From: a virus
Lineage: Duplodnaviria > Heunggongvirae > Uroviricota > Caudoviricetes
Length of the DNA: 33,477 nucleotides
Strand: one strand, 5' to 3'
Virus record (IMG/VR): IMGVR_UViG_3300029193_000102
Span: 1-33,477 of that record
Part shown: one piece after another, positions 1,027-28,813 of the stretch
Layout: the number at the start of each line of letters is the position of its first letter
Numbering within the stretch: position 1 is the stretch's first letter
Translations under genes and position numbers: made by a program
Notes under the pieces: model-generated
The model's database searches: none
What the model was told of the DNA's origin: nothing
The model's input: the letters and a program-made list of their open reading frames with translations, nothing else

Positions 1027-1063
1027 CTTGGAATTACTTGGAATATTTTCTTGGAATATTTTC
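1027..1063. repeat. Three direct copies of CTTGGAAT(T/A) (tandem TTGGAATATTTTC x2 plus one partial) between tRNA 3' end and int stop; candidate integrase arm-type sites of attL
   Basis: Copies begin at 1027, 1037 and 1050; overlap the int stop codon (1034..1036) and lie 46 nt after the tRNA. Confidence 0.4.
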
Positions 1064-2059
1064 AGGTAACGGGACATCAAGTGTCGGTGAAACTTTAACC
1101 TTCCTGTCATAGATTAGCACTTGCCCCTCGGTTTTGTGACCAGAGAAAAGTTGCTTATCCCGACTGCTTCCTTCATAGTCTGAAATTCCTTTCGCCTTCA
1201 GATCATGAAAGGTGAAGTCGGTTAAAATACCTGAAATTTTGCCTGCGCGATTTCTTGCTTCTACCCACATTTCGTTAAAGCCTTTGTACATATATCGGTT
1301 GCCGTATTGATTGCTGATTACATAGGCGGATGTTGGTAACTGTTTTGCTTTTTCGATCGCCGCCTGTAATCGTGGACTCCATGCTTTTATCTGTTTTTTT
1401 CCTGTTTTCCCTTGCTGGATAAAGATCCCGTCGTTTCCAATCTGCTCCCATTTCAGCGATAACACATCGGAAACCCTTGCTGCACACAGATAGGCAATTT
1501 CCATTGCGATAAAAACAGGAAGAGGTGCAACGCTTAATACTGCCTGGTATTCTTTGTCGGTTACATATCGTTCGCGGTTTTTGGCCTTGAATTTACTTAC
1601 ACCTGCACATGGGTTAGCCTTCACGTACCCTCGCTCATACCCCCAACTGTAAACACGGGACATACTGCTTTTTTCATGGTTGGCTTGCGTTTTACTCTGC
1701 TCCCCTCTTTTGTCCATGTATCGACGGATGTGTTCTGGTTTTATGGAATCCGCTGGTACCTTACCGAATACGGCAAGCAACTTTTTTTGATGTTGCAGAT
1801 AATCTTTTTGTGTTCTTGGACTAAGGTCACTGTAATAGGCGCTGGCGAGGAATTTTTCCCACAAGCGACCGAATGTCATTGCACGATCGCGATTATTTAC
1901 AGTTTCCTCATACTTTTTCCATAAAGCAGCTAAACCATCCTTGATGGCGGTTAGTGTGACAGATTCTCTGGATGTTGGTTTCCATACATAACTATATTTA
2001 TTTGGGTATACATTTGGAGGTAATTTTTCGTGTTCAGGATTTTTCCTTCGTCTTCCCAT
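1034..2059 (-). CDS. int: Tyrosine integrase, lambda Int family
   Basis: 341 aa; N-terminus MGRRRKNPEHEKLPPNVY resembles the lambda Int arm-binding domain (MGRRRSHERRDLPPNLY); C-terminal HDLKAKG...GH...LIYDRK catalytic-type motifs; adjacent to tRNA. Confidence 0.9.
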   Translation of the reverse strand: MGRRRKNPEHEKLPPNVYPNKYSYVWKPTSRESVTLTAIKDGLAALWKKYEETVNNRDRAMTFGRLWEKFLASAYYSDLSPRTQKDYLQHQKKLLAVFGKVPADSIKPEHIRRYMDKRGEQSKTQANHEKSSMSRVYSWGYERGYVKANPCAGVSKFKAKNRERYVTDKEYQAVLSVAPLPVFIAMEIAYLCAARVSDVLSLKWEQIGNDGIFIQQGKTGKKQIKAWSPRLQAAIEKAKQLPTSAYVISNQYGNRYMYKGFNEMWVEARNRAGKISGILTDFTFHDLKAKGISDYEGSSRDKQLFSGHKTEGQVLIYDRKVKVSPTLDVPLPENIPRKYSK

Positions 2060-2262
2060 CAGATCGCACCAAAATTCGGCTCTACCTCGCGTGGTGGTAA
2101 AGTTTTATTGCAGGTAAATAGATCCCGGCTGACAATCGGTTTGCCACTACGATTGGTATAGAACGGAAGCCCGTTTTCCATTAACCATTTTCGCTGGTGG
2201 CTTGCATATTTGCAGCCCGTTAATATTAGCAATTCATCTTCGGTTAAAAATAAGCTGCTCAT
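2059..2262 (-). CDS. Excisionase-like small protein (DUF4224-type)
   Basis: 67 aa, stop overlaps int start (ATGA); position immediately upstream of int; MSSLFLTEDELLILTGCKYASHQRKWLMENGLPFY resembles DUF4224 excisionase-like proteins. Confidence 0.6.
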   Translation of the reverse strand: MSSLFLTEDELLILTGCKYASHQRKWLMENGLPFYTNRSGKPIVSRDLFTCNKTLPPREVEPNFGAI

Positions 2263-2320: not shown

Positions 2321-4762
2321 TTAAAAATCAGCCTGACTCGGGATCAGTTTTTGCCAGATAGCTGAAACGTATTTTGCCTGGTAACGAGCGTCATCAAGTG
2401 CATTATGGCGCTCACCTTCGAATGGAATAGCCGTTCTGGCATCGAAGTCTATGGCTTTCCCCAGCTCAACGATTGTGCGTACATCGCGATCGTTGTAGTA
2501 ACGCCACGGGCAGGGGATCCCCTGCCGTTCGTATGAACGGCGCAAAATCGTGTTGTCGAAGTTGGCTCCATTTCCCCAGACCTGAACAAAAAATTCACCG
2601 GAGTTTTCGTCGATAAATTCCCGCAATTGTAACAGTGCATCATCTAACGGGATTTCATCGGTCATAATGGCAGATTGCGCTTCGCGTGATTGCTTAAGCC
2701 ACCATTTAATGGTGTCCCGATCAATGACTCCGCCAGCAGTTTCCAGATCGATAGTCTTACTAAATTCCGGTCCCATATCTCCGGTTTGCGGATCGAAAAA
2801 TATTGCACCTATTGAGATGATCGGGGCATCAGGATTTTTTCCCATGGTTTCAAGGTCGATCATTAGATGGTCACACGTCCTGCTGGTGGATGTGATTTCG
2901 TGATGACCGTTCACCTTAATTGAGTGATCTGCCGTCTCGCCAGTTTTATTATCGCTGGCGTGATGCTGATTGCCGCCAGGGTTCTCCTTGTGTGGATGTT
3001 CAGCGCCTTCCATTTCCTCCGGATCATTTTCCTGAACTTCAACCTGATTCTCTTCATCGAATGTTTCCTGGTATGTTGCGTCGCCCATCACCGCGCCACA
3101 ATCAGGGCAGTTGCCGCCACCGCTCTGACCGCAGGCGGTGCAGACTTTTTCCGGTTCCTGTTGCGCTACTGGTTCGGATTGTTTCGTTTCTGGCTCGTTT
3201 TGTAACGCATTTGGGCTGTTTTGTTCCGCTTTTTGGTCGTTCCGTTCCGATTCATGCTGGTTCTGGTTCACAGAATCGCGAGTCTGGATCCCCTTGACCC
3301 ATTTCGGATCATTAGGGTCGCTAATCCCCTCAACAAATTCACCACGCGATACAGCAAGTAACTTATCGGCGTCAGGCTGGCTGATATTGGCTGCCTGCAT
3401 AATTTTGTTTACTTCGTCAGCGGTGACTTTTACTTGGTTAGCGGAACTCACCTGCGACTGAGCATCCAGCGACTGCGCGTTTTGGCCATGTTCAGTTGTA
3501 TCCGGTTCCATTGTTTCAGTTGTTGCCTGTTCACCTGCCATTGCGTCAGATGGTTGTGGTTTTTCTTCTTCTGTTTCACGCTCAGTAACCACCTCGCGGT
3601 TAATTTCTTCCAGGATATCTTTTTCCGGCGTATGCCGGGCAGCTGTGAGAGTTTCCTTGCTGGGGTTCTCGTGATCAGTTTCCGTCAAATAGGCGTTGAT
3701 ATACCCCTGAAGGCGTCCCGGGTAGTGATAAAATTCAGGGTGTGCGCTTCGGATAAGTGCAAAAATAGCGGCGCGGGAATAGTCCAGAATACCCGGGGTT
3801 GCACGAAGTGCTGCGGACCATTCTTTGAACGGACTTTCTTTGTTCAGGACTACTTCTTTTGCGCGACGATAAACGCTGCCCGGAATTTCATAAATATTAA
3901 AATCCATCGGAAGTGTGGATGCTGCAATCTCCACATCCAGTGTGTCGAGGGTGTGTACTAAATTCGGATTGCGATCGGTTTTGTTCCCACCGCCAGCATT
4001 AGCACCGAAAGCCGTGCGGGTGATGCGTGAAACACGATTTCCTTTCATCCACTCTTTTGTCAGCAGACCCCGATCAGTGTAGTCAGCGTCCAGGTATGCT
4101 TCGAAAAAAGCAGTTATTAGTCCCAGGTCTGAATTACCAGGATTAGGGAAAACTTTGTCAGTGTCACGAACCAGTTTGTGGAGGTCGCGAATCTCCAGCG
4201 AGTCGAGCAGACTGGTTTTATGCGAAATAGCCAGGGCAGTAACAGCCGGTAGTTCTTCAGCCCGTGCAATGTGTAATGCCTGGAGTTCGTCGCGTGAAAC
4301 GTGCGTTACTGGTTTTTCGCTGCCGTGTTGAGCAAGCCAACGAATGGGCAGTTCCTGACCGGAGACAGGCAGAAGCATGCTCTCCTCAATCTCAGTCATG
4401 TCTTCGCCGTTGATGTTGGTATTGTCAGTGCTGGCTGGTTTGTCCCGAACAGAGGGGGAAGGGCCGATAAATGTCATTGTGATGCCATCTTTCCCGCCTT
4501 TTTCATAGCGGTTGCAGAATTCAGTATCAAACACGCCTTCTGGCGGAAGGTCGTCAACAACGGGCAAATTGACGCGGACGGGTTTTTTAAAGTCGTCTTC
4601 ATCATAATCGTTGTCATCCATTGCGGTAATGCAGCGGGAGATTGCAACAGATAATTTTTTTGCTGTAGTCCAGTAAAAACCACCTTTAATTCCTAGGCGT
4701 TTTCTTACTTTGTCATTTTTTGCTTCGCAATATAGTGCAAATTCTTCTTTATCAGTGCTCAT
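2321..4762 (-). CDS. Large exonuclease-like protein: C-terminal DEDDh-type 3'-5' exonuclease domain, central Cys4 zinc ribbon, acidic linker, uncharacterised N-terminal half (possibly the intact form of Qin YdfE)
   Basis: 813 aa; C-terminal motifs [10 protein letters not shown] (Exo I-like) and [13 protein letters not shown] (Exo III H-x4-D-like); [16 protein letters not shown] zinc ribbon; Qin-like gene order int - ydfE - ydfD - dicB. Confidence 0.7.
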
Positions 4763-4855: not shown

Positions 4856-5047
4856 TTAAAGACCTGCCGGGATTTCGTTATTATCCTGGTGAATAACTTT
4901 ATCGACCGGATAACAGTTGCCTGGAATTTTCTGTTCGGTTGCTGCTGCCATACATTCCTGCATTGTTCTGTGAACACTGACTGCAATATCAACTGGCTCT
5001 CCGGAAACAAGAAAAACCGTCAGAATAAGTGCAAATACTGGATTCAT
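4856..5047 (-). CDS. ydfD: YdfD-like small protein with N-terminal hydrophobic segment (Qin lysis-associated peptide)
   Basis: 63 aa from ATG 5045..5047 with AGGA upstream; MNPVFALILTVFLVSGEP... signal/TM-like N-terminus; directly downstream of dicB as in Qin. Confidence 0.55.
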   Translation of the reverse strand: MNPVFALILTVFLVSGEPVDIAVSVHRTMQECMAAATEQKIPGNCYPVDKVIHQDNNEIPAGL

Positions 5048-5232
5048 TGTGCACATCCTTTTGGCATCAGACGTAAACGGGCCAGCATTGAGACAATGCA
5101 TACTTTATTTAATAACTCCCGTTCGTGTTTTCTTTTGTTAATGGCATCTTCAGTAAATACAGGATTACTGATAGTGACGCCAATTTCAAAACAACCTTCA
5201 GACGTATTAACGTTTGGTAATAACGTTTTCAT
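5044..5232 (-). CDS. dicB: DicB cell-division inhibitor
   Basis: 62 aa from ATG 5230..5232 with GAGGA 8 nt upstream; MKTLLPNVNTSEGCFEIGVTISNPVFTEDAINKRK... matches recalled E. coli K-12 DicB in length and sequence. Confidence 0.7.
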   Translation of the reverse strand: MKTLLPNVNTSEGCFEIGVTISNPVFTEDAINKRKHERELLNKVCIVSMLARLRLMPKGCAQ

Positions 5233-5401
5233 TATCGCGTCCTCAACAATGAATTTTGTGATGCAGTGCCTGGTGCCTCCAGGTGACGTTAACCAGTTAA
5301 CAATTAACGCCGGATACAGAGAATCCACCCATAACACTGTTTTTGGTTTTAACTGTTCCGCGTGCGCTCAGCCGCATTCACCACATCACAAAATTCACTT
5401 T

Positions 5402-5459
5402 AAAAAGGGCGGCAGAGCAGTCACGGAGTAAAACTGATACCGCCAAACGTCACCAGAAA
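5402..5459 (-). ncRNA. dicF: DicF small RNA (53 nt at 5407..5459) with 3' stem-loop and U-tract
   Basis: Minus-strand sequence TTTCTGGTGACGTTTGGCGGTATCAGTTTTACTCCGTGACTGCTCTGCCGCCC followed by TTTTT matches recalled DicF; lies upstream of dicB as in the Qin dicB operon. Confidence 0.7.
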
Positions 5460-6089: not shown

Positions 6090-6446
6090 TTACTCGAGAG
6101 GAAATTGGTTATGAGTACAATCAAGTTTTCTTGCCCAGAATGTGGTGGCGAAGTCTTTGACACATCCTTTAAGCCGCAGGGCTCTGACAGTTTCGCGGGA
6201 GCCATCTGCAAAAATTGTGGTCACCTTGTAACTGAAGATGAGTCCTCGCAGTTCGATGATGAAATCGTTGACAATATCTTCGGTGCACTCACCAGAGACT
6301 TTCTGAAGTAAAGGCGCATACCGCTTAGTTACCGCTCTGATAATTCTTACCTGTCCGGCAATGGCGCTGATGTCAATATAAAGCGCCATTGCTGCTTCTT
6401 TGCCGATCCCGGGATGCCTTCCATTCTGATGTTTGACTTCGCCCAC
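6090..6446 (-). CDS. Hypothetical 118-aa protein (GTG start); conflicts with the antisense zinc-ribbon ORF at 6111..6311
   Basis: AGAGGA 7 nt upstream of GTG 6444..6446; same strand as the surrounding early-left operon; no recognisable motif. Confidence 0.3.
   Translation of the reverse strand: MGEVKHQNGRHPGIGKEAAMALYIDISAIAGQVRIIRAVTKRYAPLLQKVSGECTEDIVNDFIIELRGLIFSYKVTTIFADGSRETVRALRLKGCVKDFATTFWARKLDCTHNQFPLE
6111..6311 (+). CDS. Hypothetical 66-aa zinc-ribbon protein (CPECGG...CKNCGH); antisense to the 6090..6446 ORF
   Basis: ATG 6111 with GAGAGGAAA upstream; two CxxC pairs ~22 residues apart; opposite strand to neighbouring genes. Confidence 0.35.
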   Translation: MSTIKFSCPECGGEVFDTSFKPQGSDSFAGAICKNCGHLVTEDESSQFDDEIVDNIFGALTRDFLK

Positions 6447-6636
6447 TGAGAAATCCTCTGTTTCCCCTTAACGCCGGGGTAGCGGAACAAAAACCTGCTG
6501 CATAGTTATTAAAGTTGAACCCTGCCGTCATGTTCTTACGCCTCGGGCTGGCTACTTAACCCCTGACCACTGCCTGGTAACTCGAAGTATTGCCCTGCAT
6601 TCTGTGGGGCGGGGTGGGTTGGTATGAAAAGAAGGA

Positions 6637-6673
6637 TACCCATAGGTATTTAAAAAGTAAATACCTATGGGTA
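6637..6673. promoter_or_regulatory. 16-bp perfect inverted repeat TACCCATAGGTATTTA / TAAATACCTATGGGTA (5-bp spacer); candidate operator upstream of the dicB-type operon
   Basis: Arms at 6637..6652 and 6658..6673; lies in the 270-bp non-coding gap between the repressor gene stop and the first early-left ORF. Confidence 0.35.
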
Positions 6674-6715
6674 AATTTTTGCGGTGTCTTAACTGGTGAC
6701 TAGTTGTTTGGTGAG

Positions 6716-7135
6716 CTATGATGCGTTTTGTGCTTTCTTTTTACGGATTTCTTCGTAGATCATATTGTAATACTGTTTTTTCTCTTCAAGAGTTTTTAAT
6801 AATTTATCCGCTTCACTTTCTGGCAGTTCGTCTAAGAGATCTAAAAAAATACGTTGTCGTGGCGTTAGAACCCTTGTTTCATAACTGGAGGCTGTGTTCG
6901 TTGATGATGAAACGATACCATCCATCCATCCCCGGGGTAACCCAAAGGACTCTTCGATAATCTCCACCATATCATCAGCGATCCGTTTTTTTCCCTTTTT
7001 CCCCTCTGGGTACAACATTCTTGATACATAAGAAGGCTCGCGCCCGATCTTTCTGGCCACGTTAACCGCTTTACCATCGCATTTCTCATCACGAATTTTG
7101 ATGAGTTGCTGTCGTCTAAATTCATATTTGTCCAT
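6716..7135 (-). CDS. Prophage repressor, HTH (DicA/RacR-like immunity repressor), possibly translated leaderless
   Basis: 139 aa; HTH-like segment GKAVNVARKIGREPSYVSRML; C-terminal FLDLLDELPESEAD resembles recalled DicA; divergent from a Cro-like gene; no SD before the ATG but a TATTAT -10 (7142..7147) sits just upstream. Confidence 0.7.
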   Translation of the reverse strand: MDKYEFRRQQLIKIRDEKCDGKAVNVARKIGREPSYVSRMLYPEGKKGKKRIADDMVEIIEESFGLPRGWMDGIVSSSTNTASSYETRVLTPRQRIFLDLLDELPESEADKLLKTLEEKKQYYNMIYEEIRKKKAQNAS

Positions 7136-7141
7136 AGGTAA

Positions 7142-7211
7142 ATAATAGATGCGATTACCGCAAGGTAAACAACCTGTGGGTATTGACTTTTGTTTACCTG
7201 TGGGTATTCTT
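7142..7211. promoter_or_regulatory. Divergent promoter/operator region: direct repeats ACCTGTGGGTATT (7172..7184, 7196..7208) overlapping a rightward promoter (-35 TTGACT 7183..7188, -10 ~7205..7211) and a leftward promoter (-35 GTTTAC 7165..7170 rc, -10 TATTAT 7142..7147 rc)
   Basis: Repeats and hexamers read directly; spacings 16-17 bp; placement between the divergent repressor and Cro-like genes. Confidence 0.4.
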
Positions 7212-7235
7212 TGCTGTGTTTACTAAGGAGTAGCT

Positions 7236-7517
7236 ATGGAAGAATTAAGAATATTTCTCAATTCTCTTTCGTCAGATGAACAGCGTATGTTTGCATGCGA
7301 GTGTGGTACCAGCATCGGTTATCTAAGAAAGGCATTGAGTAAAGGTCAAGTGTTAGGGGCATCGTTATGTGTCCTTATTGAGCGAGCCAGTAATGGTGAA
7401 GTTACACGTCAGCAACTAAGGCCTTTTGATTGGATGAATATTTGGCCCGAGCTGGAAGATACCAAAACGTTAACACAACCACTTTCTAGGAGCTTGATTC
7501 ATGAAAATCAAGCATGA
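7236..7517 (+). CDS. Cro-like HTH regulator (YdaS/DicC-like)
   Basis: 93 aa; AAGGAG SD 7 nt upstream; HTH segment CGTSIGYLRKALS; QLRPFDWMNIW resembles recalled Rac YdaS; divergent from the repressor. Confidence 0.7.
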   Translation: MEELRIFLNSLSSDEQRMFACECGTSIGYLRKALSKGQVLGASLCVLIERASNGEVTRQQLRPFDWMNIWPELEDTKTLTQPLSRSLIHENQA

Positions 7518-7926
7518 ACACATCCGCATGGCGATGAATGCATGGGCGCGTCCTGATGGCGAAAAAGTTCCAGCAGCTGGAATAACCCAGGCTTATTTTG
7601 AGTTGGGTATGACGTTCCCAGAACTGTATGACGACAGCCATCCGGAAGCCCTGGCTCGCAATACCCAGAAAATTTTCCGCTGGGTAGAGAAAGACACCCC
7701 TGATGCTGTTGAAAAAATGCAGGCTCTGTTACCGGCGATCGAAAAGGCGATGCCGCCTTTGCTGGTGGCCCGTATGCGCAGCCACAGTTCTGAATATTAC
7801 CGTGAGATCGTCGAACGGAGGGATCGGCTGGTGAAGGATGTCGATGATTTTGTTGCGTCAGCGGTTGTTTTGTATGACCAGATGAATCGCGGCGGCCCGG
7901 CAGGGAATGCTGTGGTGATGCACTAA
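7501..7926 (+). CDS. YdaT-like regulator (CII-position protein)
   Basis: 141 aa; N-terminus MKIKHEHI matches recalled Rac YdaT; AGGAG SD; start overlaps the Cro-like gene end. Confidence 0.65.
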   Translation: MKIKHEHIRMAMNAWARPDGEKVPAAGITQAYFELGMTFPELYDDSHPEALARNTQKIFRWVEKDTPDAVEKMQALLPAIEKAMPPLLVARMRSHSSEYYREIVERRDRLVKDVDDFVASAVVLYDQMNRGGPAGNAVVMH

Positions 7927-7948
7927 AAGCACGGTGTTCGGGGGGTTT

Positions 7949-8911
7949 ATGAGCAGCAAGCTTCATGGTCTTGTCTGGGAAGGGTGCGCCTTCACCGGCA
8001 TGATCTTATCCAGGGTGGCGGTTATGGCCCGTCTTGCAGACTACAGCAATGACGAGGGCGTGTCATGGCCTGCCATTGAAACTATCCGGCGTCAGATCGG
8101 TGCAAGAAGTGAATCCACAGTGAAATCGGCTATTGCAGAACTGGCGAAAGAGGGCTGGCTGACGAAGGAAGAGCGTAAGGTCGGTGGGCGTAATGTAAGC
8201 AATATCTATCGGCTTAATGTGGAAAAACTCGAAGCAGCTGCGGCGGCGGCGCGTGAGTCATATAAACCGAAAAGAAAAATTAGCCCGGCAAAAAATGACC
8301 CGTTAACAGTTGACCCGTCAAATATTGACCCCTCAACGGTTGACCCGTCAAATTTTGATGGATCAACTGTTGATAAAAAACTGCCGATTAGGGGGGCGAT
8401 GATTGACCCCGATCCGTCAGTATTAAAACCTGATCCGTCAGATAAAAGATCTTCTTGTCCGGACGCTTCGCAACCGGACCCGCAGACGGCTGAACAGGAT
8501 TTTTTAACCCGACACCCTGACGCGGTTGTGTTCAGTGCGAAAAAACGCCAGTGGGGAAGTCAGGAAGATTTGGTGTGCGCACAGTGGATCTGGGGACGAA
8601 TCGTGAGTCTTTACGAGCAGGCGGCCAGCTATGATGGCGAGATCACTAGACCGAAAGAACCCAACTGGACAGCATGGGCCAATGACGTTCGCACAATGCG
8701 GATGCTGGATGGCAGAACTCACAGACAAATTTGTGAAATGTTTGGGCGTCTCCAGCGGGATTCGTTCTGGGTAAAAAACATCATGAGTCCGGCAAAACTC
8801 CGGGAAAAATGGGATGAACTGGTTATCCGCCTGGGGCGTTCGCCTGCGCAGCGTTGCGTGAATCACATTTCTGAACCGGACACTGAAATTCCGCCGGGCT
8901 TCAGGGGGTGA
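7949..8911 (+). CDS. Replication initiator (lambda O-like role) with N-terminal winged-helix domain and internal pentapeptide repeat
   Basis: ATG 7949 after G-rich SD (ORF track starts at GTG 7934); N-terminal HTH-type domain; immediately followed by a DnaC-like loader; contains iteron array. Confidence 0.7.
   Translation: MSSKLHGLVWEGCAFTGMILSRVAVMARLADYSNDEGVSWPAIETIRRQIGARSESTVKSAIAELAKEGWLTKEERKVGGRNVSNIYRLNVEKLEAAAAAARESYKPKRKISPAKNDPLTVDPSNIDPSTVDPSNFDGSTVDKKLPIRGAMIDPDPSVLKPDPSDKRSSCPDASQPDPQTAEQDFLTRHPDAVVFSAKKRQWGSQEDLVCAQWIWGRIVSLYEQAASYDGEITRPKEPNWTAWANDVRTMRMLDGRTHRQICEMFGRLQRDSFWVKNIMSPAKLREKWDELVIRLGRSPAQRCVNHISEPDTEIPPGFRG
8310..8441. repeat. Iteron-like direct repeats (TTGACCCGTCAAAT family) with exact 15-bp periodicity inside the initiator gene; candidate replication origin
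   Basis: Copies start at 8310, 8325, 8340, 8355, 8370, with degenerate copies at 8403 and 8431; they encode the repeated VDPSN(I/F)D peptide. Confidence 0.5.
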
Positions 8912-8917
8912 CGTGTC

Positions 8918-9664
8918 ATGAAAAACATTGCGGCAGTTGGGGTTCTTGAACGTATTCGCAGACTTGCACCACAGGGGGCGGTTCCACCGTACCGGACGGT
9001 GGAGGAGTGGCGGGAATGGCAACTTGCTGAAGGACGAAAACGCAGCGAGGAGATTAACCGCCAGAATCGCCAGTTGCGGGTGGAAAAAATCCTGAATCGT
9101 TCGGGCATTCAGCCTCTGCACAGCAAATGCTCGTTTGCAAATTATCAGGTGCAGAACGACGGGCAAAAATACGCGCTGAGCCAGGCCAAATCCATAGCTG
9201 ACGAACTGATGACCGGGTGCACGAATTTTGTGTTCAGCGGTAAAACCGGCACCGGGAAAAATCACCTTGCAGCGGCGATGGGCAACCGGCTGATGGTGAA
9301 GGGGCGCAGCGTGATTATCGTCACCGTTTCTGACGTCATGAGCGTGTTGCATGACAGCTACGACAACGGCAAATCCGGGGAAAAATTTTTACAGGAGCTT
9401 TGCGGGGTTGATTTGCTGGTCCTGGATGAAATAGGCGTTCAGCGGGAGACGAAAAACGAGCAGGTGGTATTGCACCAGATAATTGATCGCCGGACAGCAT
9501 CACTGTGCAGTGTCGGGATGTTAACAAACCTGAATCATGCCGCAATGAGTACGCTTCTTGGTGAGAGGATTATGGACCGCATGACCATGAACGGTGGTCG
9601 ATGGGTGACGTTTAACTGGGATAGCTGGCGTCCAAATGTCAGCAATATGAGGGTTGTGAAGTAA
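8918..9664 (+). CDS. DnaC-like helicase loader (IstB-type AAA+ ATPase)
   Basis: 248 aa; Walker A GKTGTGKNHLAAAMG, Walker B LLVLDEIG. Confidence 0.85.
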   Translation: MKNIAAVGVLERIRRLAPQGAVPPYRTVEEWREWQLAEGRKRSEEINRQNRQLRVEKILNRSGIQPLHSKCSFANYQVQNDGQKYALSQAKSIADELMTGCTNFVFSGKTGTGKNHLAAAMGNRLMVKGRSVIIVTVSDVMSVLHDSYDNGKSGEKFLQELCGVDLLVLDEIGVQRETKNEQVVLHQIIDRRTASLCSVGMLTNLNHAAMSTLLGERIMDRMTMNGGRWVTFNWDSWRPNVSNMRVVK

Positions 9665-17043: not shown

Positions 17044-19014
17044 ATGGCATTTAAACACTACGATGTGGTCAGGGCGGCATCGCCGTCAGACCTTGCGGAT
17101 GCGCTTGCTCAAAAAATTCGTGAAGGATGGCAACCATACGGCGGGCCGTTTTCTTCGTACACGGATGATGGCGCAGCACTTATTCAGGCGATTGTCGCAG
17201 AAGGTAATGTCACCACACCTGTGGTGGTGAAGCCGTCGGATGGAGAAGGCGCAGTTATCAGCACCACCAGCAACCCGGAGTATTACTTTGTTGTTGCCCT
17301 GGCCGGGCAGTCAAACGGTATGGCGTATGGTGAAGGGCTTCCGCTGCCGGAGACATATGACCGTCCGGACCCGCGTATTAAACAGCTGGCGCGTCGCAGC
17401 ACTGTCACGCCGGGTGGTGCGTCCTGTAACTACAATGACATTATTCCTGCGGACCACTGCCTGCATGATGTTCAGGATTTGAGTAAGTTTTCACACCCGA
17501 AAGCCAGCGCAGCTCAGTATGGATGCGTGGGGCAGGGATTACATATCGCGAAGAAATTGTTGCCGTTTATTCCGGCGAATGCCGGTATTCTTCTGGTTCC
17601 GTGCTGCCGTGGGGGTTCTGCATTTTTGGCGGGCGATGAAGGTACCTTCAGCGAATCCACCGGCGCAAGCGAGACCTCGGCACGCTGGGGTGTAGATAAG
17701 CCACTGTACAAGGACCTGCTTACCCGTACTCAGGCCGCACTGAAGGCCAACCCTAAAAATATTCTGCTTGCAGTGGTCTGGATGCAGGGCGAGTTTGATT
17801 TGAAACAGGGTGCATACGCCACTCAGCCGGGGCTGTTTGATTCCATGGTGGAAAAATATCGTTCTGACCTGTCGGAATTCGGAGGTCAGTGTCTCGGGGG
17901 CTCTCCGTCATCAGTTCCCTGGATTTGTGGCGACACGACCTACTACTGGAAGCAGACTTATTCTTCGCAATACGATGCGGTGTATGGTGCATACAAGACG
18001 AAATCCGCAAAAAAAATCTTCTTTGTGCCGTTTATGACGGATGAAAACGGGCGAAATGTGGGTACCAACGAGCCGTCAGAAGATCCGGATGTTGCGGATA
18101 TTGGGTATTACGGAGCCGGTGGTCGAACGGACGCCAAAACCTGGACGACGGCTGACCGTAAAACGCATTTTGGATCATGGGCACGTCGTGGGATTATTTC
18201 CGACCGTCTGGCAACGGCGATTCTTGTGCATGCCGGGAGAACCGCTGAATTCATTACCGGAAAACAGCCTGATACGGTGAAGCCCACCGGACCTTCCGGT
18301 GAAGGTACGGAGAGAGAGCCGGAAGGTCCGGTCAGTAACCGAACCCTGATGAGTCTGCTGGCGTCCGGCGAAGACCTGGCATCACAGGGCTGGCGCTATT
18401 ATCACAAACCGGCGAGCGGAGACAATGTTAACAAAAACATTGCTGAAGCGGTGGTCAGTGATGCGGGGGCTACGGGAGGTAAGGCCCTGCAACTGAATAA
18501 ACCGGAAAACCACATCTGGTTTCTGGAGCATGATGCAGCCGGGCAGGGGGCAGAGTTGCTGAAGAAAGGAGGACGTGTGAGCGTACGGTTTAAGTTGCCG
18601 GGTTCACTGGTGCCGAATCAGTTTGCCCTGGGCATTTACTGGCAGTTGTCGTCCCTGCCGGAGGGAGTGACGCTGGCAGAGGAAGGCAACGACATGCTGA
18701 TGTCCTTCTTCCTGCAGACGGATGCGACGAACCTGAACGCGATGCACCACAAGAAGCCGAATGCGAAGCTGGAAACGTTCGGGGTCTTTGATAACGGATG
18801 GCACACACTGGCTTTTGAGTTTGCCGGAAACAACAGCATTCAGGTGACGCCGGTACTGGATGAGAAACGGGGGACGCCGTTCACACTGGTGAAATCTCCG
18901 GCATCAGGGGCGGTGGACAAACTGCAACTGACAGGCATATCAAAGGCGGCGACATATACGCTGCTGATTGACAGTGTGAAGGTGGAAGTGAACAACGCGG
19001 ACATCGCGGCATGA
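17044..19014 (+). CDS. nanS: Prophage sialate O-acetylesterase (NanS-p type; DUF1737 N-terminus plus SGNH/SASA esterase domain)
   Basis: 656 aa; GGAGG SD; N-terminus MAFKHYDVVRAASPSDLADALAQKIREGWQPYGG; esterase motif ALAGQSNG; position between Q and lysis genes as in Stx phages. Confidence 0.8.
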   Translation: MAFKHYDVVRAASPSDLADALAQKIREGWQPYGGPFSSYTDDGAALIQAIVAEGNVTTPVVVKPSDGEGAVISTTSNPEYYFVVALAGQSNGMAYGEGLPLPETYDRPDPRIKQLARRSTVTPGGASCNYNDIIPADHCLHDVQDLSKFSHPKASAAQYGCVGQGLHIAKKLLPFIPANAGILLVPCCRGGSAFLAGDEGTFSESTGASETSARWGVDKPLYKDLLTRTQAALKANPKNILLAVVWMQGEFDLKQGAYATQPGLFDSMVEKYRSDLSEFGGQCLGGSPSSVPWICGDTTYYWKQTYSSQYDAVYGAYKTKSAKKIFFVPFMTDENGRNVGTNEPSEDPDVADIGYYGAGGRTDAKTWTTADRKTHFGSWARRGIISDRLATAILVHAGRTAEFITGKQPDTVKPTGPSGEGTEREPEGPVSNRTLMSLLASGEDLASQGWRYYHKPASGDNVNKNIAEAVVSDAGATGGKALQLNKPENHIWFLEHDAAGQGAELLKKGGRVSVRFKLPGSLVPNQFALGIYWQLSSLPEGVTLAEEGNDMLMSFFLQTDATNLNAMHHKKPNAKLETFGVFDNGWHTLAFEFAGNNSIQVTPVLDEKRGTPFTLVKSPASGAVDKLQLTGISKAATYTLLIDSVKVEVNNADIAA

Positions 19015-25342: not shown

Positions 25343-26844
25343 TGGCAATTATTGATGATGTGATAGGCGTGTTTTCCCCCGGCTGGAAAGCAGCCAGACT
25401 GCGTTCAAGGGCGTTAATCATGGCCTATGAGGCGGTGAAACCGACCCGGACACATAAAGCCCGGCGGGAAAATCGCTCTGCTGATCAGCTCAGTAAATAC
25501 GGTGCGGTTTCCCTGCGGGAGCAGGCCCGTTTTCTGGATATCAATCATGACCTGGTGATTGGTGTGTTTGACAAGCTGGAAGAGCGGGTGATTGGTGCCA
25601 GGGGAATTATTGTGGAGCCTCAGCCATTACGAAAAAACGGGGAAATGGCGGCAGAGCTGGCTGCGGATATCCGCCGGTTGTGGGCTGAGTGGTCCGTGAG
25701 TCCGGATGTGACAGGGCAGTATACCCGTCCCGTGCTTGAACGTTTACTGCTGCGGACCTGGCTGCGGGATGGTGAAGTGTTTGCGCAGATGGTCAGTGGT
25801 GCGGGAAACGGTCTGGAACGGACGGCGGGAGTGCCATTCTGGCTTGAGGCGATGGAGCCGGATTTTGTTCCCATGCGCACTGATGAATCCGCCGGACTGA
25901 ATCAGGGGGTTTTTCTTGATGAGTGGGGAAGACCGAAAAAATATCTGGTTTATAAAAATTATCCGGTCAGCGGCCGGCAGAGTGATACGAAAGAAATCGC
26001 TGCCGGAAAAATGATCCACCTGAAGTTCACTCGTCGTCTGCATCAGACGCGAGGCTCATCCATGTTATCGGGGGTGCTGATACGGATCAGTGCCCTTAAG
26101 GAGTATGAGGATGCGGAACTCACTGCGGCGCGTATTGCCGCGGCGCTGGGACTGTATATCCGTAAAGGTGACGGGCAGGACTATGAAGAGCCGGGGATCA
26201 AAGAAACCGACCGGGAAGTCCATATCACACCGGGTATTATTTATGACGATTTGCGCAAGGGCGAGGATATCGGCATGGTCAAATCAGACCGTCCCAATCC
26301 CAACCTTGAAACTTTCCGCAACGGCCAGTTGCGTGCAGTGGCAGCGGGCAGTCGTCTGAGTTTTTCCAGTGCGGCGCGTAACTATAACGGCACCTACAGT
26401 GCCCAGCGGCAGGAGCTGGTCGAGTCCACGGATGGTTACCTGATCCTGCAGGACTGTTTTATTGGCGCGGTAACCCGTCCGGTGTACCGGACATGGCTGA
26501 ATATGGTGGTTGCGGCAGGTCTGCTGAAAATTCCGGCGGATGTGGAGATGAAAACGCTATATAACGCGACGTATTCCGGTCCGGTGATGCCGTGGATCGA
26601 CCCGGTTAAGGAAGCTGAAGCCTGGAGAATTCAGATCCGGGGTGGTGCAGCGACAGAATCTGACTGGGTGCGTGCCGGCGGGCGCAATCCGGATGAGGTC
26701 AAACGTCGCCGCAAGGCTGAAATTGATGAAAACAGCAGACTGGGGCTGGTCTTTGATACTGACCCCGTCAACGACAAAGGAGGCAACAGTGCCGGAACTG
26801 AACAACAGCGTCAGCAGGCCACCGACAGCCAGCATGAAGAATAA
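25342..26844 (+). CDS. B: Portal protein (lambda gpB family)
   Basis: 500 aa, placed after W and before the protease as in lambda. Confidence 0.85.
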   Translation: MAIIDDVIGVFSPGWKAARLRSRALIMAYEAVKPTRTHKARRENRSADQLSKYGAVSLREQARFLDINHDLVIGVFDKLEERVIGARGIIVEPQPLRKNGEMAAELAADIRRLWAEWSVSPDVTGQYTRPVLERLLLRTWLRDGEVFAQMVSGAGNGLERTAGVPFWLEAMEPDFVPMRTDESAGLNQGVFLDEWGRPKKYLVYKNYPVSGRQSDTKEIAAGKMIHLKFTRRLHQTRGSSMLSGVLIRISALKEYEDAELTAARIAAALGLYIRKGDGQDYEEPGIKETDREVHITPGIIYDDLRKGEDIGMVKSDRPNPNLETFRNGQLRAVAAGSRLSFSSAARNYNGTYSAQRQELVESTDGYLILQDCFIGAVTRPVYRTWLNMVVAAGLLKIPADVEMKTLYNATYSGPVMPWIDPVKEAEAWRIQIRGGAATESDWVRAGGRNPDEVKRRRKAEIDENSRLGLVFDTDPVNDKGGNSAGTEQQRQQATDSQHEE

Positions 26845-28813
26845 ATCCTGGTTCAGGATGCAGGCGGGTGGTCAGGGTGAGGCGGATATTTATATTTATG
26901 ACGAGATTGGTTTCTGGGGAGTTACCGCGAAGCAGTTTGTCAGCGATATGAATGCCCTGGGTGATATCACCCACATTAATCTCCACATCAACTCACCGGG
27001 TGGCGATGTCTTTGAAGGCATCGCCATTTTTAATGCCCTGAAAAATCACGGTGCGGCCATTACCGTGTATGTGGATGGCGTTGCCGCCTCGATGGCATCC
27101 CTGATTGCGATGGCCGGTGACACGGTCATTATGCCGGAAAATGCCTTCATGATGATCCATAAACCCTGGGGGATCAGCGGTGGTGATGCGGAGAAAATGC
27201 GCACTTATGCCGAACGTCTGGACAAACTTGAGTCGGTTATGGTGCCGGTATATGCGCAGAAAACCGGAAAAACTACCGATGAAATTGCCGCCATGCTGGC
27301 GGATGAGACCTGGATGTCCGGTGCCGAGTGTCTGGCACACGGATTTGCAGACCAGGTGACGCCAGCCGTTAAGGCAATGGCATGTATTCAGTCAAAACGT
27401 ACAGAGGAATTTAAAAAGATGCCGGAATCCATCCGAAATATGATCACGCAGCCATACAACAGTGCCCCGCGTGATACCACAGTGACAATCCCTGCACCGG
27501 CGGTAACAGAACCATCACCGGTACCGGCAGTGTCTGATGAGGCGACCATTCGCGCCCGCGTTATGGCAGAACAGAAAGCCCGCATGTCAGGCATTAACGA
27601 TCTGTTTGCCATGTTCGGCGGTCGCTATCAGACGCTTCAGGCACAGTGCGTGGCTGATCCTGACTGTTCGCTGGAAATGGCCCGTGAACGTCTGCTGAAT
27701 GAAATGGGCAAGGAGTCCTCGCCGACCAACAAAAATACACCGGCTCATATTTATGCCGGAAACGGCAATTTTGTGGGGGACGGGATCCGCCAGGCGATGC
27801 TGGCCCGTGCCGGATTTGAAAATGTCGAGAAGGATAACGCCTATAACGGGATGACCCTGCGTGAATGGGCTCGCATGTCACTGACGGAGCGCGGTATTGG
27901 GGTGGCCAGTTATAACCCCATGCAGATGGTCGGGCTGGCGCTGACGCACAGCACCTCTGATTTTGGCAATATTCTGCTGGATGTGTCGAACAAGGGGCTG
28001 ATCCAGGGCTGGGAGGAATCAGAAGAAACCTTCCAGAAGTGGACCCGTAAGGGACGCCTGTCAGACTTCAAAACAGCGTATCGCGTGGGGATGGGCGGTT
28101 TTGGTTCTCTGCGCCAGGTTCGTGAGGGGGCGGAGTATAAATACATCACCACCTCAGATCGCAAGGAGACCATTGCACTGGCCACTTACGGGGAGATTTT
28201 CTCCATCACCCGCCAGGCCATTATCAATGATGATCTGAATATGCTGGTGGACGTGCCGATGAAGATGGGGCGTGCGGCGAAGGCAACGATTGGTGACCTG
28301 GTTTACAAGGTGCTGACGGATAACCCGAAACTGTCAGACGGTAAGGCGCTGTTCCATGCCGATCACAAAAATATTGCCACCGGTGGGATTTCCGTTTCCG
28401 GACTGGATGCGGCCCGTCAGATGATGCGCCTGCAGAAAGAAGGCGATCGCGCCCTGAATATCCGTCCGGCCTTTATGCTGGTACCGGTGGCACTGGAGAC
28501 GGTGGCGAACCAGACCATCAAATCGGCCAGTGTGAAAGGGGCGGATGCAAACGCCGGTGTCATTAACCCCATCCAGAACTTTGCTGAGGTGATTGCAGAA
28601 GCGCGTCTTGATGCGGCAGATCCGAAAACCTGGTATCTGGCGGCGGCACAGGGCACTGACACCATTGAAGTGGCCTGGCTGGATGGTGTGGACACTCCAT
28701 ACATTGATCAGCAGGAAGGTTTCACCACTGACGGCATTGCCACAAAAATCCGTATTGATGCCGGAGTGGCACCACTTGACTGGCGCGGGCTGGTGCGTTC
28801 GTCGGTGGCCTGA
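26834..28813 (+). CDS. Prohead protease (ClpP/S49-like) fused to a putative major capsid domain
   Basis: ~660 aa from ATG 26834 (track ORF begins 26642 inside the portal gene); protease region INSPGGDVFEGIAIFNAL...ASMASLIAMAGD; C-terminal ~330 aa of capsid-like character; no separate major capsid gene follows. Confidence 0.7.
   Translation: MKNKSWFRMQAGGQGEADIYIYDEIGFWGVTAKQFVSDMNALGDITHINLHINSPGGDVFEGIAIFNALKNHGAAITVYVDGVAASMASLIAMAGDTVIMPENAFMMIHKPWGISGGDAEKMRTYAERLDKLESVMVPVYAQKTGKTTDEIAAMLADETWMSGAECLAHGFADQVTPAVKAMACIQSKRTEEFKKMPESIRNMITQPYNSAPRDTTVTIPAPAVTEPSPVPAVSDEATIRARVMAEQKARMSGINDLFAMFGGRYQTLQAQCVADPDCSLEMARERLLNEMGKESSPTNKNTPAHIYAGNGNFVGDGIRQAMLARAGFENVEKDNAYNGMTLREWARMSLTERGIGVASYNPMQMVGLALTHSTSDFGNILLDVSNKGLIQGWEESEETFQKWTRKGRLSDFKTAYRVGMGGFGSLRQVREGAEYKYITTSDRKETIALATYGEIFSITRQAIINDDLNMLVDVPMKMGRAAKATIGDLVYKVLTDNPKLSDGKALFHADHKNIATGGISVSGLDAARQMMRLQKEGDRALNIRPAFMLVPVALETVANQTIKSASVKGADANAGVINPIQNFAEVIAEARLDAADPKTWYLAAAQGTDTIEVAWLDGVDTPYIDQQEGFTTDGIATKIRIDAGVAPLDWRGLVRSSVA

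What the first reader, a model, noticed from the sequence alone, without database searches (positions are those of the whole stretch)
2321..4762. 813-aa exonuclease-like protein with no recombinase partner
The C-terminal ~190 aa carries DEDDh-type 3'-5' exonuclease motifs ([10 protein letters not shown] ... [13 protein letters not shown]), preceded by a Cys4 zinc ribbon and a long acidic low-complexity linker, while the N-terminal ~450 aa has no motif I can name. It sits where lambdoid phages usually carry exo/bet or recE/recT, but no single-strand annealing protein gene is nearby. It may be the uninterrupted version of the gene that is split in K-12 Qin (YdfE), which is my recollection and not checked.
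Basis: partly seen in the sequence, partly recalled or inferred. Interest (0 to 1): 0.55.

Follow-up and report, generated by a model that had tools for sequence, protein, structure and literature searches.

The report
RecE scaffold with swapped DEDDh exonuclease
This prophage gene keeps the poorly understood front three-quarters of the recombination enzyme RecE but replaces its cutting domain with an unrelated 3'-to-5' exonuclease like phage T4 DexA; this swapped form never has the partner gene recT beside it and is more common in E. coli than RecE itself.

Summary
The 813-aa ORF at 2321-4762 (-) is real. Residues 1-615 are RecE-like: 59% identity to K-12 RecE 52-588, including the Cys4 ribbon and acidic linker. 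Homology stops at residue 615. Where RecE has its PD-(D/E)XK nuclease domain, this protein has an Rv2179c/DexA-type DEDDh domain (PF16473, E 7.6e-68) with all five catalytic residues (D636, E638, D736, H786, D791). Its nearest solved fold is T4 DexA. The gene is the last member of a repressor-controlled ydfC-dicF-dicB-ydfD early-left operon, directly upstream of xis-int.

No annealing protein is encoded in the window, and this is systematic. In species-representative genomes, 7 of 7 PD-(D/E)XK-type loci have recT downstream and 0 of 5 DEDDh-type loci do. In complete E. coli genomes the DEDDh domain occurs at 8111 places, against 1827 for the RecE nuclease domain and 1842 for recT.

The YdfE idea is half right. 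ydfE is the IS2-truncated stump of an allelic 823-aa exonuclease (phages mEp460, Tritos) that shares residues 270-812 with this protein, but the stump is a different N-terminal module.

The most likely role is an annealase-independent 3'-5' DNA-end exonuclease of the phage early programme. That role is inferred, not shown. Verdict: new variant of a known kind, moderate interest.

The parts
2321..4762 (-). Complete CDS, 813 aa plus stop: RecE-scaffold::DEDDh exonuclease. The exact sequence is in nr as DAM55717.1, named 'exonuclease VIII'.
3968..4762 (-). Module A, aa 1-265: RecE-type N-terminal module (Pfam Exonuc_VIII). Alpha/beta sub-domain at aa 1-100 followed by a helical sub-domain. Replaced by an unrelated YdfE-type module in mEp460, Tritos and Qin.
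3572..3955 (-). Module B, aa 270-397: helical core found in nearly all family members examined (RecE-type, YdfE-type, DEDDh-type and PD-(D/E)XK-type).
2882..3571 (-). Acidic, mostly disordered linker, aa 398-627. Contains the two ordered islands listed below.
3299..3373 (-). Most conserved motif of the family examined, aa 464-488 (D..K..A..RGE.V.GISDPND.KW). Invariant in 9 of 9 diverse members, pLDDT about 80. Candidate partner-binding element (inferred).
3098..3142 (-). Cys4 zinc ribbon, C541/C544/C552/C555. Shared with K-12 RecE but absent from some relatives.
2918..2920 (-). Codon 615: last residue with RecE homology (RecE residue 591). The cassette junction lies here, about 15 aa before the catalytic domain.
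2324..2881 (-). Module C, aa 628-813: Rv2179c/DexA-like DEDDh 3'-5' exonuclease domain with catalytic D636, E638, D736, H786, D791.
4856..5101 (-). DUF1482 (ydfD-like) gene immediately upstream in the same operon.
5044..5337 (-). dicB (the Pfam DicB match covers aa 36-97 of this ORF).
5407..5458 (-). DicF sRNA (Rfam RF00039, 76.7 bits).
6716..7135 (-). DicA/CI-position repressor gene upstream of the early-left operon. The assignment rests on synteny and on PGAP annotation of relatives; Pfam found no family.
2059..2262 (-). DUF4224 (excisionase position) directly downstream of the exonuclease, where Rac carries recT.
1034..2059 (-). Tyrosine integrase (341 aa, intact here) next to tRNA-Ser(cga) at 892-981.

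Best explanation
The gene encodes a mosaic member of the RecE scaffold family. A RecE-type N-terminal platform (modules A and B, an acidic disordered linker with an invariant GISDPNDxKW motif, and a Cys4 ribbon) carries a DexA/Rv2179c-type DEDDh domain in place of RecE's PD-(D/E)XK 5'-3' nuclease. It is transcribed as the last gene of the repressor-controlled dicF-dicB-ydfD early-left operon, so it would be made mainly after prophage induction or infection. Shown: the domain composition, the intact active site, the operon position, and the systematic absence of recT. Inferred: the C-terminal domain removes nucleotides from free 3' ends by two-metal DEDDh catalysis, most probably on DNA. The shared platform brings it to the same unknown partner or substrate to which it brings RecE's nuclease. 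The protein therefore acts as an annealase-independent DNA-end-processing enzyme of the phage early programme, comparable to the 3'-end trimming role reported for T4 DexA in double-strand-break repair, and not as one half of a RecET/Red-type two-component recombinase.
For: Domain swap: NCBIfam RecE model matched only at positions 1-602 of 877, score 938 against a cutoff of 1269. BLASTP aa 58-615 = RecE 50-591 at 58% identity, with nothing beyond. PF16473 E 7.6e-68. The only PDB sequence hit is DexA, and there is no hit to the RecE nuclease domain 3h4r. Foldseek top hit is DexA 8kel at E 1.7e-11, followed by RNase T and Orn. All five catalytic residues are conserved here and in 13 of 14 family members aligned. 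Omega is about 0.2 for the DEDDh domain. Operon: DicF, dicB and DUF1482 lie upstream, the gap is 93 nt, and there is no minus-strand promoter or terminator hit in the gap. In Qin the dicBF transcript runs ydfABC-dicF-dicB-ydfDE and is repressed by DicA (PMC10448788). The gene is present in the viable phages mEp460 and Tritos in the same slot. No annealase, systematically: 7 of 7 PD-(D/E)XK loci have RecT downstream and 0 of 5 DEDDh loci do. E. coli genomes hold 8111 DEDDh places against 1827 RecE-nuclease and 1842 recT places. A whole prophage from integrase to tail fibre has no annealase. DexA acts on DNA and contributes 3'-5' degradation during T4 intron homing (PMC12153337). Platform modularity: the same scaffold carries DEDDh, PD-(D/E)XK or RecT at its C-terminus. 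A stand-alone DEDDh gene occupies the same pre-xis slot in Salmonella phage 118970_sal3.
Against: There is no biochemistry for this protein or any close relative. Polarity and substrate are inferred from homology, and the Pfam family founder Rv2179c and the structural neighbours RNase T and Orn act on RNA. 3'-5' resection yields 5' tails, which are not the substrate for RecA or annealase loading, so a recombination role is not obvious. The function of the platform is unknown even for RecE (PMC11611040). The confident N-terminal model has no informative structural neighbour. The only tested temperate-phage homologue, EcD, was reported to be an anti-T4 defence nuclease.
Confidence: 0.55

Rival explanations
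1. Prophage-encoded anti-phage nuclease of the EcD/HREX kind. The DEDDh domain degrades the incoming, possibly base-modified, DNA of superinfecting phages and so protects the lysogen or the induced cell.
For: The C-domain is 38% identical (E 1.5e-37) to EcD, recovered via the published primers. According to PMC12153337, plasmid-borne EcD cleaves 5hmC DNA and protects against T4. EcD is itself a temperate-phage (P2-like) early gene. DicB in the same operon is reported to protect against phage infection (PMC6832061, listed). The gene is retained in 75% of complete E. coli genomes, often in several copies.
Against: By the paper's own criteria this domain is not EcD-type: DexA W152 aligns with Y756, D169 with A770, and the tetramer residue D90 is kept as D708, whereas EcD has W132 and A78. 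The alignment around D169 is uncertain. The gene sits in a repressor-controlled lytic operon with no promoter of its own detected. There is no PADLOC match. The EcD evidence comes from one study using plasmid expression.
Confidence: 0.2
2. 3'-5' exoribonuclease. The domain trims RNA 3' ends, as Rv2179c and RNase T do, for example phage or host transcripts or sRNAs such as those from the dicF-containing operon transcript.
For: PF16473 is named after the exoribonuclease Rv2179c, which acts on 3' overhangs of dsRNA (Abendroth 2014 as cited in PMC10534295). After DexA, the structural neighbours are RNase T, oligoribonuclease, ERI and 3'hExo. PGAP names some copies '3'-5' exoribonuclease'.
Against: The closest characterised phage homologues, DexA and EcD, act on DNA. 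The domain replaces a DNA exonuclease on a scaffold known only from a DNA recombination enzyme. DicF maturation is attributed to RNase E and RNase III.
Confidence: 0.12
3. Ordinary RecE (exodeoxyribonuclease VIII), a 5'-3' dsDNA exonuclease, as labelled in several phage records and in nr.
For: Depositors' names are 'exodeoxyribonuclease VIII' or 'exonuclease VIII'. The N-terminal 615 aa are RecE-like. The best PHROG is the exonuclease VIII family (printed there as 'exonuclease VII').
Against: There is no similarity to RecE 592-866 or to the 3h4r nuclease domain. The score is below the NCBIfam equivalog cutoff. A DEDDh domain is in its place. No recT is present.
Confidence: 0.02
4. Decaying remnant with no function: a fossil fusion in cryptic prophages.
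For: Many carriers are defective prophages (for example, the integrase is frameshifted in the relatives). The K-12 allele ydfE is a pseudogene.
Against: The 813-codon ORF is intact here, and a place covering at least 80% of the gene occurs in 1245 genomes. The catalytic residues are conserved across relatives that are less than 50% identical. Omega is about 0.2 in the catalytic domain. The gene is present in the viable phages mEp460 and Tritos.
Confidence: 0.03

Closest known systems
RecE (exodeoxyribonuclease VIII) of the Rac prophage, E. coli K-12
   Same: The N-terminal platform is shared: aa 58-615 match RecE 50-591 at 58% identity, including the [10 protein letters not shown] motif, the Cys4 ribbon and the acidic linker. 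The position in a lambdoid early-left operon before xis-int is also the same.
   Different: RecE's PD-(D/E)XK 5'-3' nuclease domain (residues about 592-866, PDB 3h4r) is absent and replaced by a DEDDh 3'-5' domain. The overlapping recT gene is absent. The score falls below the NCBIfam equivalog cutoff.
T4 DexA (exonuclease A; PDB 8KEL/8KEN)
   Same: Same DEDDh fold and the same five catalytic residues. It is the nearest solved structure. DexA is a 3'-5' DNA exonuclease of a phage early programme.
   Different: Only about 28% identity. DexA is a stand-alone 227-aa protein with extra loops, and has no RecE platform. DexA W152 and D169 are not conserved here.
EcD / HREX (E. coli DexA homologue, GenBank HAK9828821.1; PMC12153337)
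   Same: Same Pfam family, 38% identity, and encoded by a temperate phage.
   Different: EcD is a stand-alone 189-aa protein in a P2-like prophage. It has W132 and A78 at the positions the paper treats as diagnostic, where this protein has Y756 and D708. Its defence function has not been tested for this subfamily.
823-aa exonuclease of phages mEp460 and Tritos, and its K-12 stump YdfE (Qin)
   Same: Same operon slot (dicF-dicB-ydfD-exo-xis-int). Residues 270-812 here are 67-71% identical to their residues 245-822, and the 3' 1.1 kb is 94-97% identical in DNA. The DEDDh domain is the same and there is no annealase.
   Different: Their first ~256 aa (the YdfE sequence) are unrelated in sequence to module A here, which is RecE-type.
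Rv2179c of M. tuberculosis (founder of PF16473)
   Same: Same Pfam family and DEDDh chemistry.
   Different: Rv2179c is a stand-alone bacterial exoribonuclease. No PDB chain with that name appeared in my sequence searches, including the profile search.
Two-component phage recombinases (lambda Exo/Beta, RecE/RecT)
   Same: Same genomic niche in lambdoid phages.
   Different: Those pair a 5'-3' PD-(D/E)XK exonuclease with an annealase. Here the polarity is predicted to be opposite and the annealase is systematically missing.

Membership tests
RecE / exodeoxyribonuclease VIII (NCBIfam NF007259 equivalog) | Full-length match above the curated equivalog cutoff | tested here: not met
   937.9 bits against a cutoff of 1269. 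Only model positions 1-602 of 877 are matched.
RecE / exodeoxyribonuclease VIII | C-terminal PD-(D/E)XK (RecB-like) nuclease domain, as in PDB 3h4r | tested here: not met
   No alignment to RecE 592-866. phmmer against the PDB finds DexA only, not 3h4r.
RecE / exodeoxyribonuclease VIII | N-terminal RecE region (Pfam Exonuc_VIII plus linker and Zn ribbon) | tested here: met
   PF06630 E 2.3e-35. 58% identity over RecE 50-591.
RecE / exodeoxyribonuclease VIII | Adjacent recT (two-component recombinase) | tested here: not met
   The next genes downstream are DUF4224 and integrase. tblastn with RecT against the window gives its best E at 0.26. 0 of 5 DEDDh-type loci have RecT, against 7 of 7 PD-(D/E)XK-type loci.
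RecE / exodeoxyribonuclease VIII | 5'-3' dsDNA exonuclease activity | not testable with these tools
   Needs a biochemical assay.
DEDDh exonucleases, Rv2179c-like family (PF16473) | Pfam gathering threshold | tested here: met
   228.1 bits against a cutoff of 27; aa 632-803 cover profile positions 2-177 of 177.
DEDDh exonucleases, Rv2179c-like family (PF16473) | Catalytic D-E-D-H-D pentad | tested here: met
   D636, E638, D736, H786 and D791 align with DexA D7, E9, D119, H186 and D191.
DEDDh exonucleases, Rv2179c-like family (PF16473) | DnaQ-like fold | tested here: met
   AF2 domain pLDDT 75-94. Foldseek: DexA E 1.7e-11, RNase T about 1e-8, Orn about 1e-6, all at probability 1.00.
DEDDh exonucleases, Rv2179c-like family (PF16473) | Metal-dependent 3'-5' exonuclease activity, and the nature of the substrate (DNA or RNA) | not testable with these tools
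   Needs a biochemical assay.
HREX / EcD-type 5hmC-specific defence exonuclease (PMC12153337) | DexA homologue with an intact active site | tested here: met
HREX / EcD-type 5hmC-specific defence exonuclease (PMC12153337) | Trp equivalent to DexA W152 and an acidic residue equivalent to D169 | tested here: not met
   Y756 and A770 here; EcD has W132. The alignment near D169 is uncertain: EcD itself shows S146 in my alignment.
HREX / EcD-type 5hmC-specific defence exonuclease (PMC12153337) | Loss of the tetramer residue D90 (Ala in EcD) | tested here: not met
   D708 is retained. A78 is confirmed in the recovered EcD sequence.
HREX / EcD-type 5hmC-specific defence exonuclease (PMC12153337) | Protection against T4 and selective cleavage of modified DNA | not testable with these tools
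   Needs plaque assays and nuclease assays.
YdfE (Qin prophage, K-12) | Sequence homology to YdfE | tested here: not met
   Best BLASTP E is 3.9 and 4.9.
YdfE (Qin prophage, K-12) | Same operon position, and a shared remainder with the full-length YdfE-type gene | tested here: met
   Synteny. aa 270-812 are 67-71% identical to mEp460 and Tritos aa 245-822, whose aa 1-256 are YdfE.
Known defence systems (PADLOC-DB 2.0) | Match to any defence-system protein model | tested here: not met
   Only a 12-bit, E 0.031 hit over 23 residues to a generic exonuclease effector.

The most novel reading that the evidence does not exclude
The shared platform (module B, the acidic linker with the invariant RGE.V.GISDPND.KW motif, usually a Cys4 ribbon, and one of two alternative N-terminal modules) is a dedicated targeting or docking device. 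It delivers interchangeable effectors to one conserved host or phage partner: a 5'-3' PD-(D/E)XK nuclease with RecT, a 3'-5' DEDDh nuclease alone, or RecT itself. The DEDDh form would then be a distinct, annealase-independent DNA-end-processing or exclusion system carried by about three quarters of E. coli genomes. The natural domain swaps would give a direct handle on the old question of what RecE's dispensable N-terminal ~590 residues do.
Probability: 0.3. Interest if true: 0.65.

Novelty: new variant of a known kind. Interest (0 to 1): 0.45.

Why it matters
There are three reasons.

1. Annotation. Thousands of prophage genes, including this exact sequence in nr (DAM55717.1) and several phage records, are called 'exonuclease VIII' or 'RecE family'. 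Yet they carry a nuclease of unrelated fold and predicted opposite polarity, and have no RecT. Anyone mining 'RecE' homologues for recombineering would pick the wrong genes.

2. RecE biology. The function of RecE's N-terminal ~590 residues is unknown, although it boosts linear-linear recombination (PMC11611040). Nature has attached the same platform to a DEDDh nuclease, to a PD-(D/E)XK nuclease and to RecT. One short motif stays invariant in the diverse members aligned. This indicates that the platform has a role independent of nuclease polarity and of the annealase, and it points to a specific motif to mutate or use as bait.

3. Prevalence. The DEDDh form is present in 75% of complete E. coli genomes, in up to 7 copies, and outnumbers canonical recET about 4 to 1. 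Whatever it does (end processing, exclusion or RNA trimming) is a common and unstudied activity of E. coli lambdoid prophages, including those of pathogenic strains.

Tried and rejected
- The direct YdfE homology test was negative. The link emerged only through the mEp460 and Tritos full-length alleles.
- The search for homologous proteins with aa 1-394 returned only near-identical, mostly partial E. coli sequences, which were useless for diversity. The 50%-identity representative search replaced it.
- One literature search was wasted because prefix matching made 'RecE' match 'receptor'. Searches for Rv2179c plus prophage, and for PF16473, PF06630, Rv2179c-like or Exonuc_VIII, found nothing on this architecture. 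A search for ydfE found no functional study.
- The profile search of the PDB with alignment A3 gave a 3h4r hit. This is an artefact of my having included PD-(D/E)XK-type relatives in the alignment, so I disregarded it.
- PADLOC gave no meaningful hit.
- The search for related loci with the diverse alignment A2 failed for lack of a conserved stretch. It worked with the motif-centred alignment A4.
- The promoter and terminator scan found no more sites than shuffled sequence does, and I use it only as absence of evidence for a promoter of the gene's own.
- dN/dS for module B and for unrelated modules is saturated or meaningless. Only the DEDDh value is used, with the caveat that it rests on few substitutions.
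Full report
OBSERVATION. The window holds an uninterrupted 813-codon ORF at 2321-4762 on the minus strand with an ATG start. A GAGG Shine-Dalgarno lies 10 nt upstream. PGAP calls the same 2442-nt CDS in related genomes. The exact protein is in nr as DAM55717.1, named 'exonuclease VIII'.
- A C-terminal DEDDh domain (PF16473 Rv2179c-like, aa 632-803, E 7.6e-68).
- A Cys4 ribbon at C541/C544/C552/C555.
- A long acidic, polar linker, with net charge -16 over aa 398-537 and -14 over aa 561-631. AlphaFold2 predicts it to be disordered.

WHAT THE N-TERMINUS IS. The N-terminus is not anonymous. Pfam Exonuc_VIII (PF06630) matches aa 57-189. The NCBIfam RecE equivalog model matches aa 1-615, but only over model positions 1-602 of 877 and below its cutoff, at 938 against 1269 bits. 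BLASTP against K-12 RecE aligns aa 58-615 with RecE 50-591 at 58% identity. The alignment includes the Cys4 ribbon and most of the acidic linker, then stops. RecE's nuclease domain (residues 564-866 in the review PMC11611040; PDB 3h4r) has no counterpart. A phmmer search of the PDB finds only T4 DexA (8kel/8ken) over aa 633-766. The protein is therefore a RecE platform whose catalytic cassette has been exchanged.

THE CATALYTIC DOMAIN. D636, E638, D736, H786 and D791 align with the DexA catalytic residues D7, E9, D119, H186 and D191. They are conserved in 13 of 14 family members aligned (DexA residues from PMC12153337). The AF2 model of aa 398-813 folds the domain with pLDDT 75-94. Its nearest solved structures are DexA (Foldseek E 1.7e-11), then RNase T, oligoribonuclease and other DEDDh enzymes. 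A Nei-Gojobori estimate against the mEp460 and Tritos alleles gives omega of about 0.2 for this domain, from few substitutions. The domain family is widespread in phages, with 1620 records matched by tblastn, including T4 dexA at about 28% identity.

CONTEXT. The prophage is integrated at tRNA-Ser(cga), next to mtfA. On the minus strand the order is: repressor (6716-7135), ydfC-like gene, DicF sRNA (5407-5458, Rfam 76.7 bits), dicB, DUF1482/ydfD, the exonuclease, DUF4224 in the excisionase position, and integrase. This is the Qin arrangement. In Qin, one DicA-repressed transcript covers ydfABC-dicF-dicB-ydfDE (PMC10448788). I found no promoter or terminator pattern in the 93-nt gap upstream of the gene. 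It is therefore most likely the distal gene of the early-left operon, made on induction or infection. That step is inferred.

NO ANNEALING PROTEIN, AND NOT BY ACCIDENT. Pfam scans of the larger early-left, early-right and late ORFs in the window found RusA, replication, lysis and morphogenesis genes, but no RecT, Red-beta, Erf or Rad52-type protein. tblastn with RecT is negative. Related prophages at other integration sites have the same layout, as do the viable phages mEp460 and Tritos.

To generalise, I fetched loci from one genome per species using the invariant motif [ED]GISDPND. Thirteen loci were confirmed, all Enterobacteriaceae (Escherichia, Shigella, Kluyvera, Citrobacter) apart from two MAG contigs. 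All 7 PD-(D/E)XK-type loci have a RecT-family gene immediately downstream. These include a diverged 1028-aa Citrobacter braakii protein. None of the 5 DEDDh-type loci has one. In the four whose downstream gene I scanned, the next large gene is the integrase, and the fifth has the same ORF layout.

In 5426 complete E. coli genomes the DEDDh domain DNA occurs at 8111 places in 4069 genomes. The Rac RecE nuclease domain occurs at 1827 places and recT at 1842. recT thus tracks the PD-(D/E)XK domain roughly one-to-one, and the DEDDh form is about 4.4 times more frequent.

A MOSAIC GENE FAMILY, AND YdfE. The N-terminal 400 aa have only 213 relatives among 1.84 billion 50%-identity cluster representatives. 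Among the long ones, 14 carry the DEDDh domain and 25 carry at least part of the RecE PD-(D/E)XK domain. Two carry RecT fused directly to the platform. Many carry nothing I could recognise.

K-12 YdfE is not similar to the window's protein. However, the 823-aa exonucleases of mEp460 and Tritos start with the YdfE sequence, at 96% and 99% identity over aa 1-256. From residue 245 they align with residues 270-812 of the window's protein at 67-71% identity. The 3' 1.1 kb is 94-97% identical in DNA.

The family is therefore built from three parts:
- Module A, about 260 aa, in two unrelated versions: RecE type or YdfE type.
- A shared core: helical module B, the acidic linker with an invariant RGE.V.GISDPND.KW segment, and usually the Cys4 ribbon.
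- Module C: DEDDh, or PD-(D/E)XK plus recT.

ydfE is the IS2-truncated stump of a YdfE-A/DEDDh allele at the same locus.

RELATION TO EcD/HREX. A 2025 paper reports that an E. coli DexA homologue, EcD, cleaves only 5hmC DNA and protects against T4 when plasmid-borne (PMC12153337). I recovered EcD from viral contigs with the published forward primer. It is a 189-aa protein with A78 at the DexA D90 position, as the paper states. It lies in a P2-like prophage early operon beside a Dam methylase. The window's domain is 38% identical to EcD and 57% identical to a stand-alone gene that occupies the same pre-xis slot in Salmonella phage 118970_sal3. By the paper's own criteria the window's domain is not EcD-type: it has Y756 for W152, A770 for D169, and D708 retained for D90. 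PADLOC has no model for it. A defence role remains possible but is not favoured.

MECHANISM AND CONFIDENCE.
- Shown: the architecture, the intact DEDDh active site, the operon position, the cassette-like linkage of PD-(D/E)XK with recT and of DEDDh with no annealase, the prevalence, and the mosaicism.
- Inferred: two-metal 3'-5' exonucleolysis on DNA 3' ends, delivery by the RecE-type platform, and a role in annealase-independent DNA-end processing during the phage early programme. The last is by analogy with DexA's reported 3'-5' role in T4 double-strand-break repair.

I give this 0.55. The rivals are an EcD-like exclusion nuclease (0.2), an RNA 3' exonuclease (0.12), a remnant with no function (0.03) and canonical RecE (0.02).

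NOVELTY. The Pfam domain pair is visible in databases, and PGAP already names complete copies 'exonuclease' or '3'-5' exonuclease'. I found no paper describing the swap, its linkage rule with recT, its prevalence or the YdfE connection. I rate it a new variant of a known kind, with moderate interest.

Noticed in passing
window 5407-5458 (-): A full-length DicF sRNA gene (Rfam RF00039, 76.7 bits) lies between the ydfC-like gene and dicB, so this prophage carries a complete dicBF-type operon.
   Followed up: partly
window 6637-6673: A 16-bp-stem palindrome (TACCCATAGGTATTTA...TAAATACCTATGGGTA) scores as a terminator on both strands. It lies immediately downstream of the repressor gene and ahead of the early-left operon.
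   Followed up: no
window 1034-2059 (-): The integrase ORF is intact here (341 aa). The corresponding gene is annotated as frameshifted in the closest relatives, E. coli 042 and AVS0196.
   Followed up: no
window 6105-6311 (+): A 68-aa double CxxC zinc-ribbon ORF lies on the opposite strand inside the early-left region. The matching ORF in a relative is annotated as 'ECs_2282 family putative zinc-binding protein'. It overlaps a 118-aa minus-strand ORF at 6090-6446.
   Followed up: no
L048 (Citrobacter murliniae CP163158.1) 6269-9098: A 513-aa family member has a YdfE-type N-terminus and the shared core but no recognisable catalytic domain. It is followed by a 272-aa protein with no Pfam match and a Sipho_Gp157 gene before the integrase. 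This may be a third type of C-terminal cassette.
   Followed up: partly
protein P0123 (703 aa): The RecE platform is fused directly to a RecT domain (PF03837, E 1.2e-42 at aa 528-678), with no nuclease domain. It could be a natural deletion or a genuine fusion.
   Followed up: no
L031 6401-6991 (-) and neighbours (IMG/VR contig 2671181127_000013): EcD, the 'bacterial' HREX defence exonuclease of PMC12153337, is encoded in the early operon of a P2-like prophage, between a Cox-like gene and a Dam methyltransferase and gpA replication gene. This context is not mentioned in the parts of the paper I read.
   Followed up: partly
one search hit list; window 2321-4762: Nearly all of the best 120 database hits to the N-terminal 394 aa are annotated 'partial', many on contigs of only a few kb. 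This fits the multi-copy gene (up to 7 per genome) breaking short-read assemblies.
   Followed up: no
alignment, one DEDDh-type representative: One family member has Lys in place of the catalytic Glu (E638 position) and Ala in place of the Asp (D736 position). It is probably an inactive variant.
   Followed up: no
window 26642-28813 (+): A single 723-aa ORF combines a ClpP-type protease domain (aa 94-240) with a major capsid domain (aa 430-720). It is a fused prohead protease-capsid gene.
   Followed up: no
window 17044-19014 (+): A 656-aa protein with DUF1737, SASA (sialate O-acetylesterase) and DUF6645 domains lies between the antiterminator and the lysis genes. The relative has tRNA-Ile and tRNA-Arg genes in this interval, but ARAGORN finds none here.
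   Followed up: no
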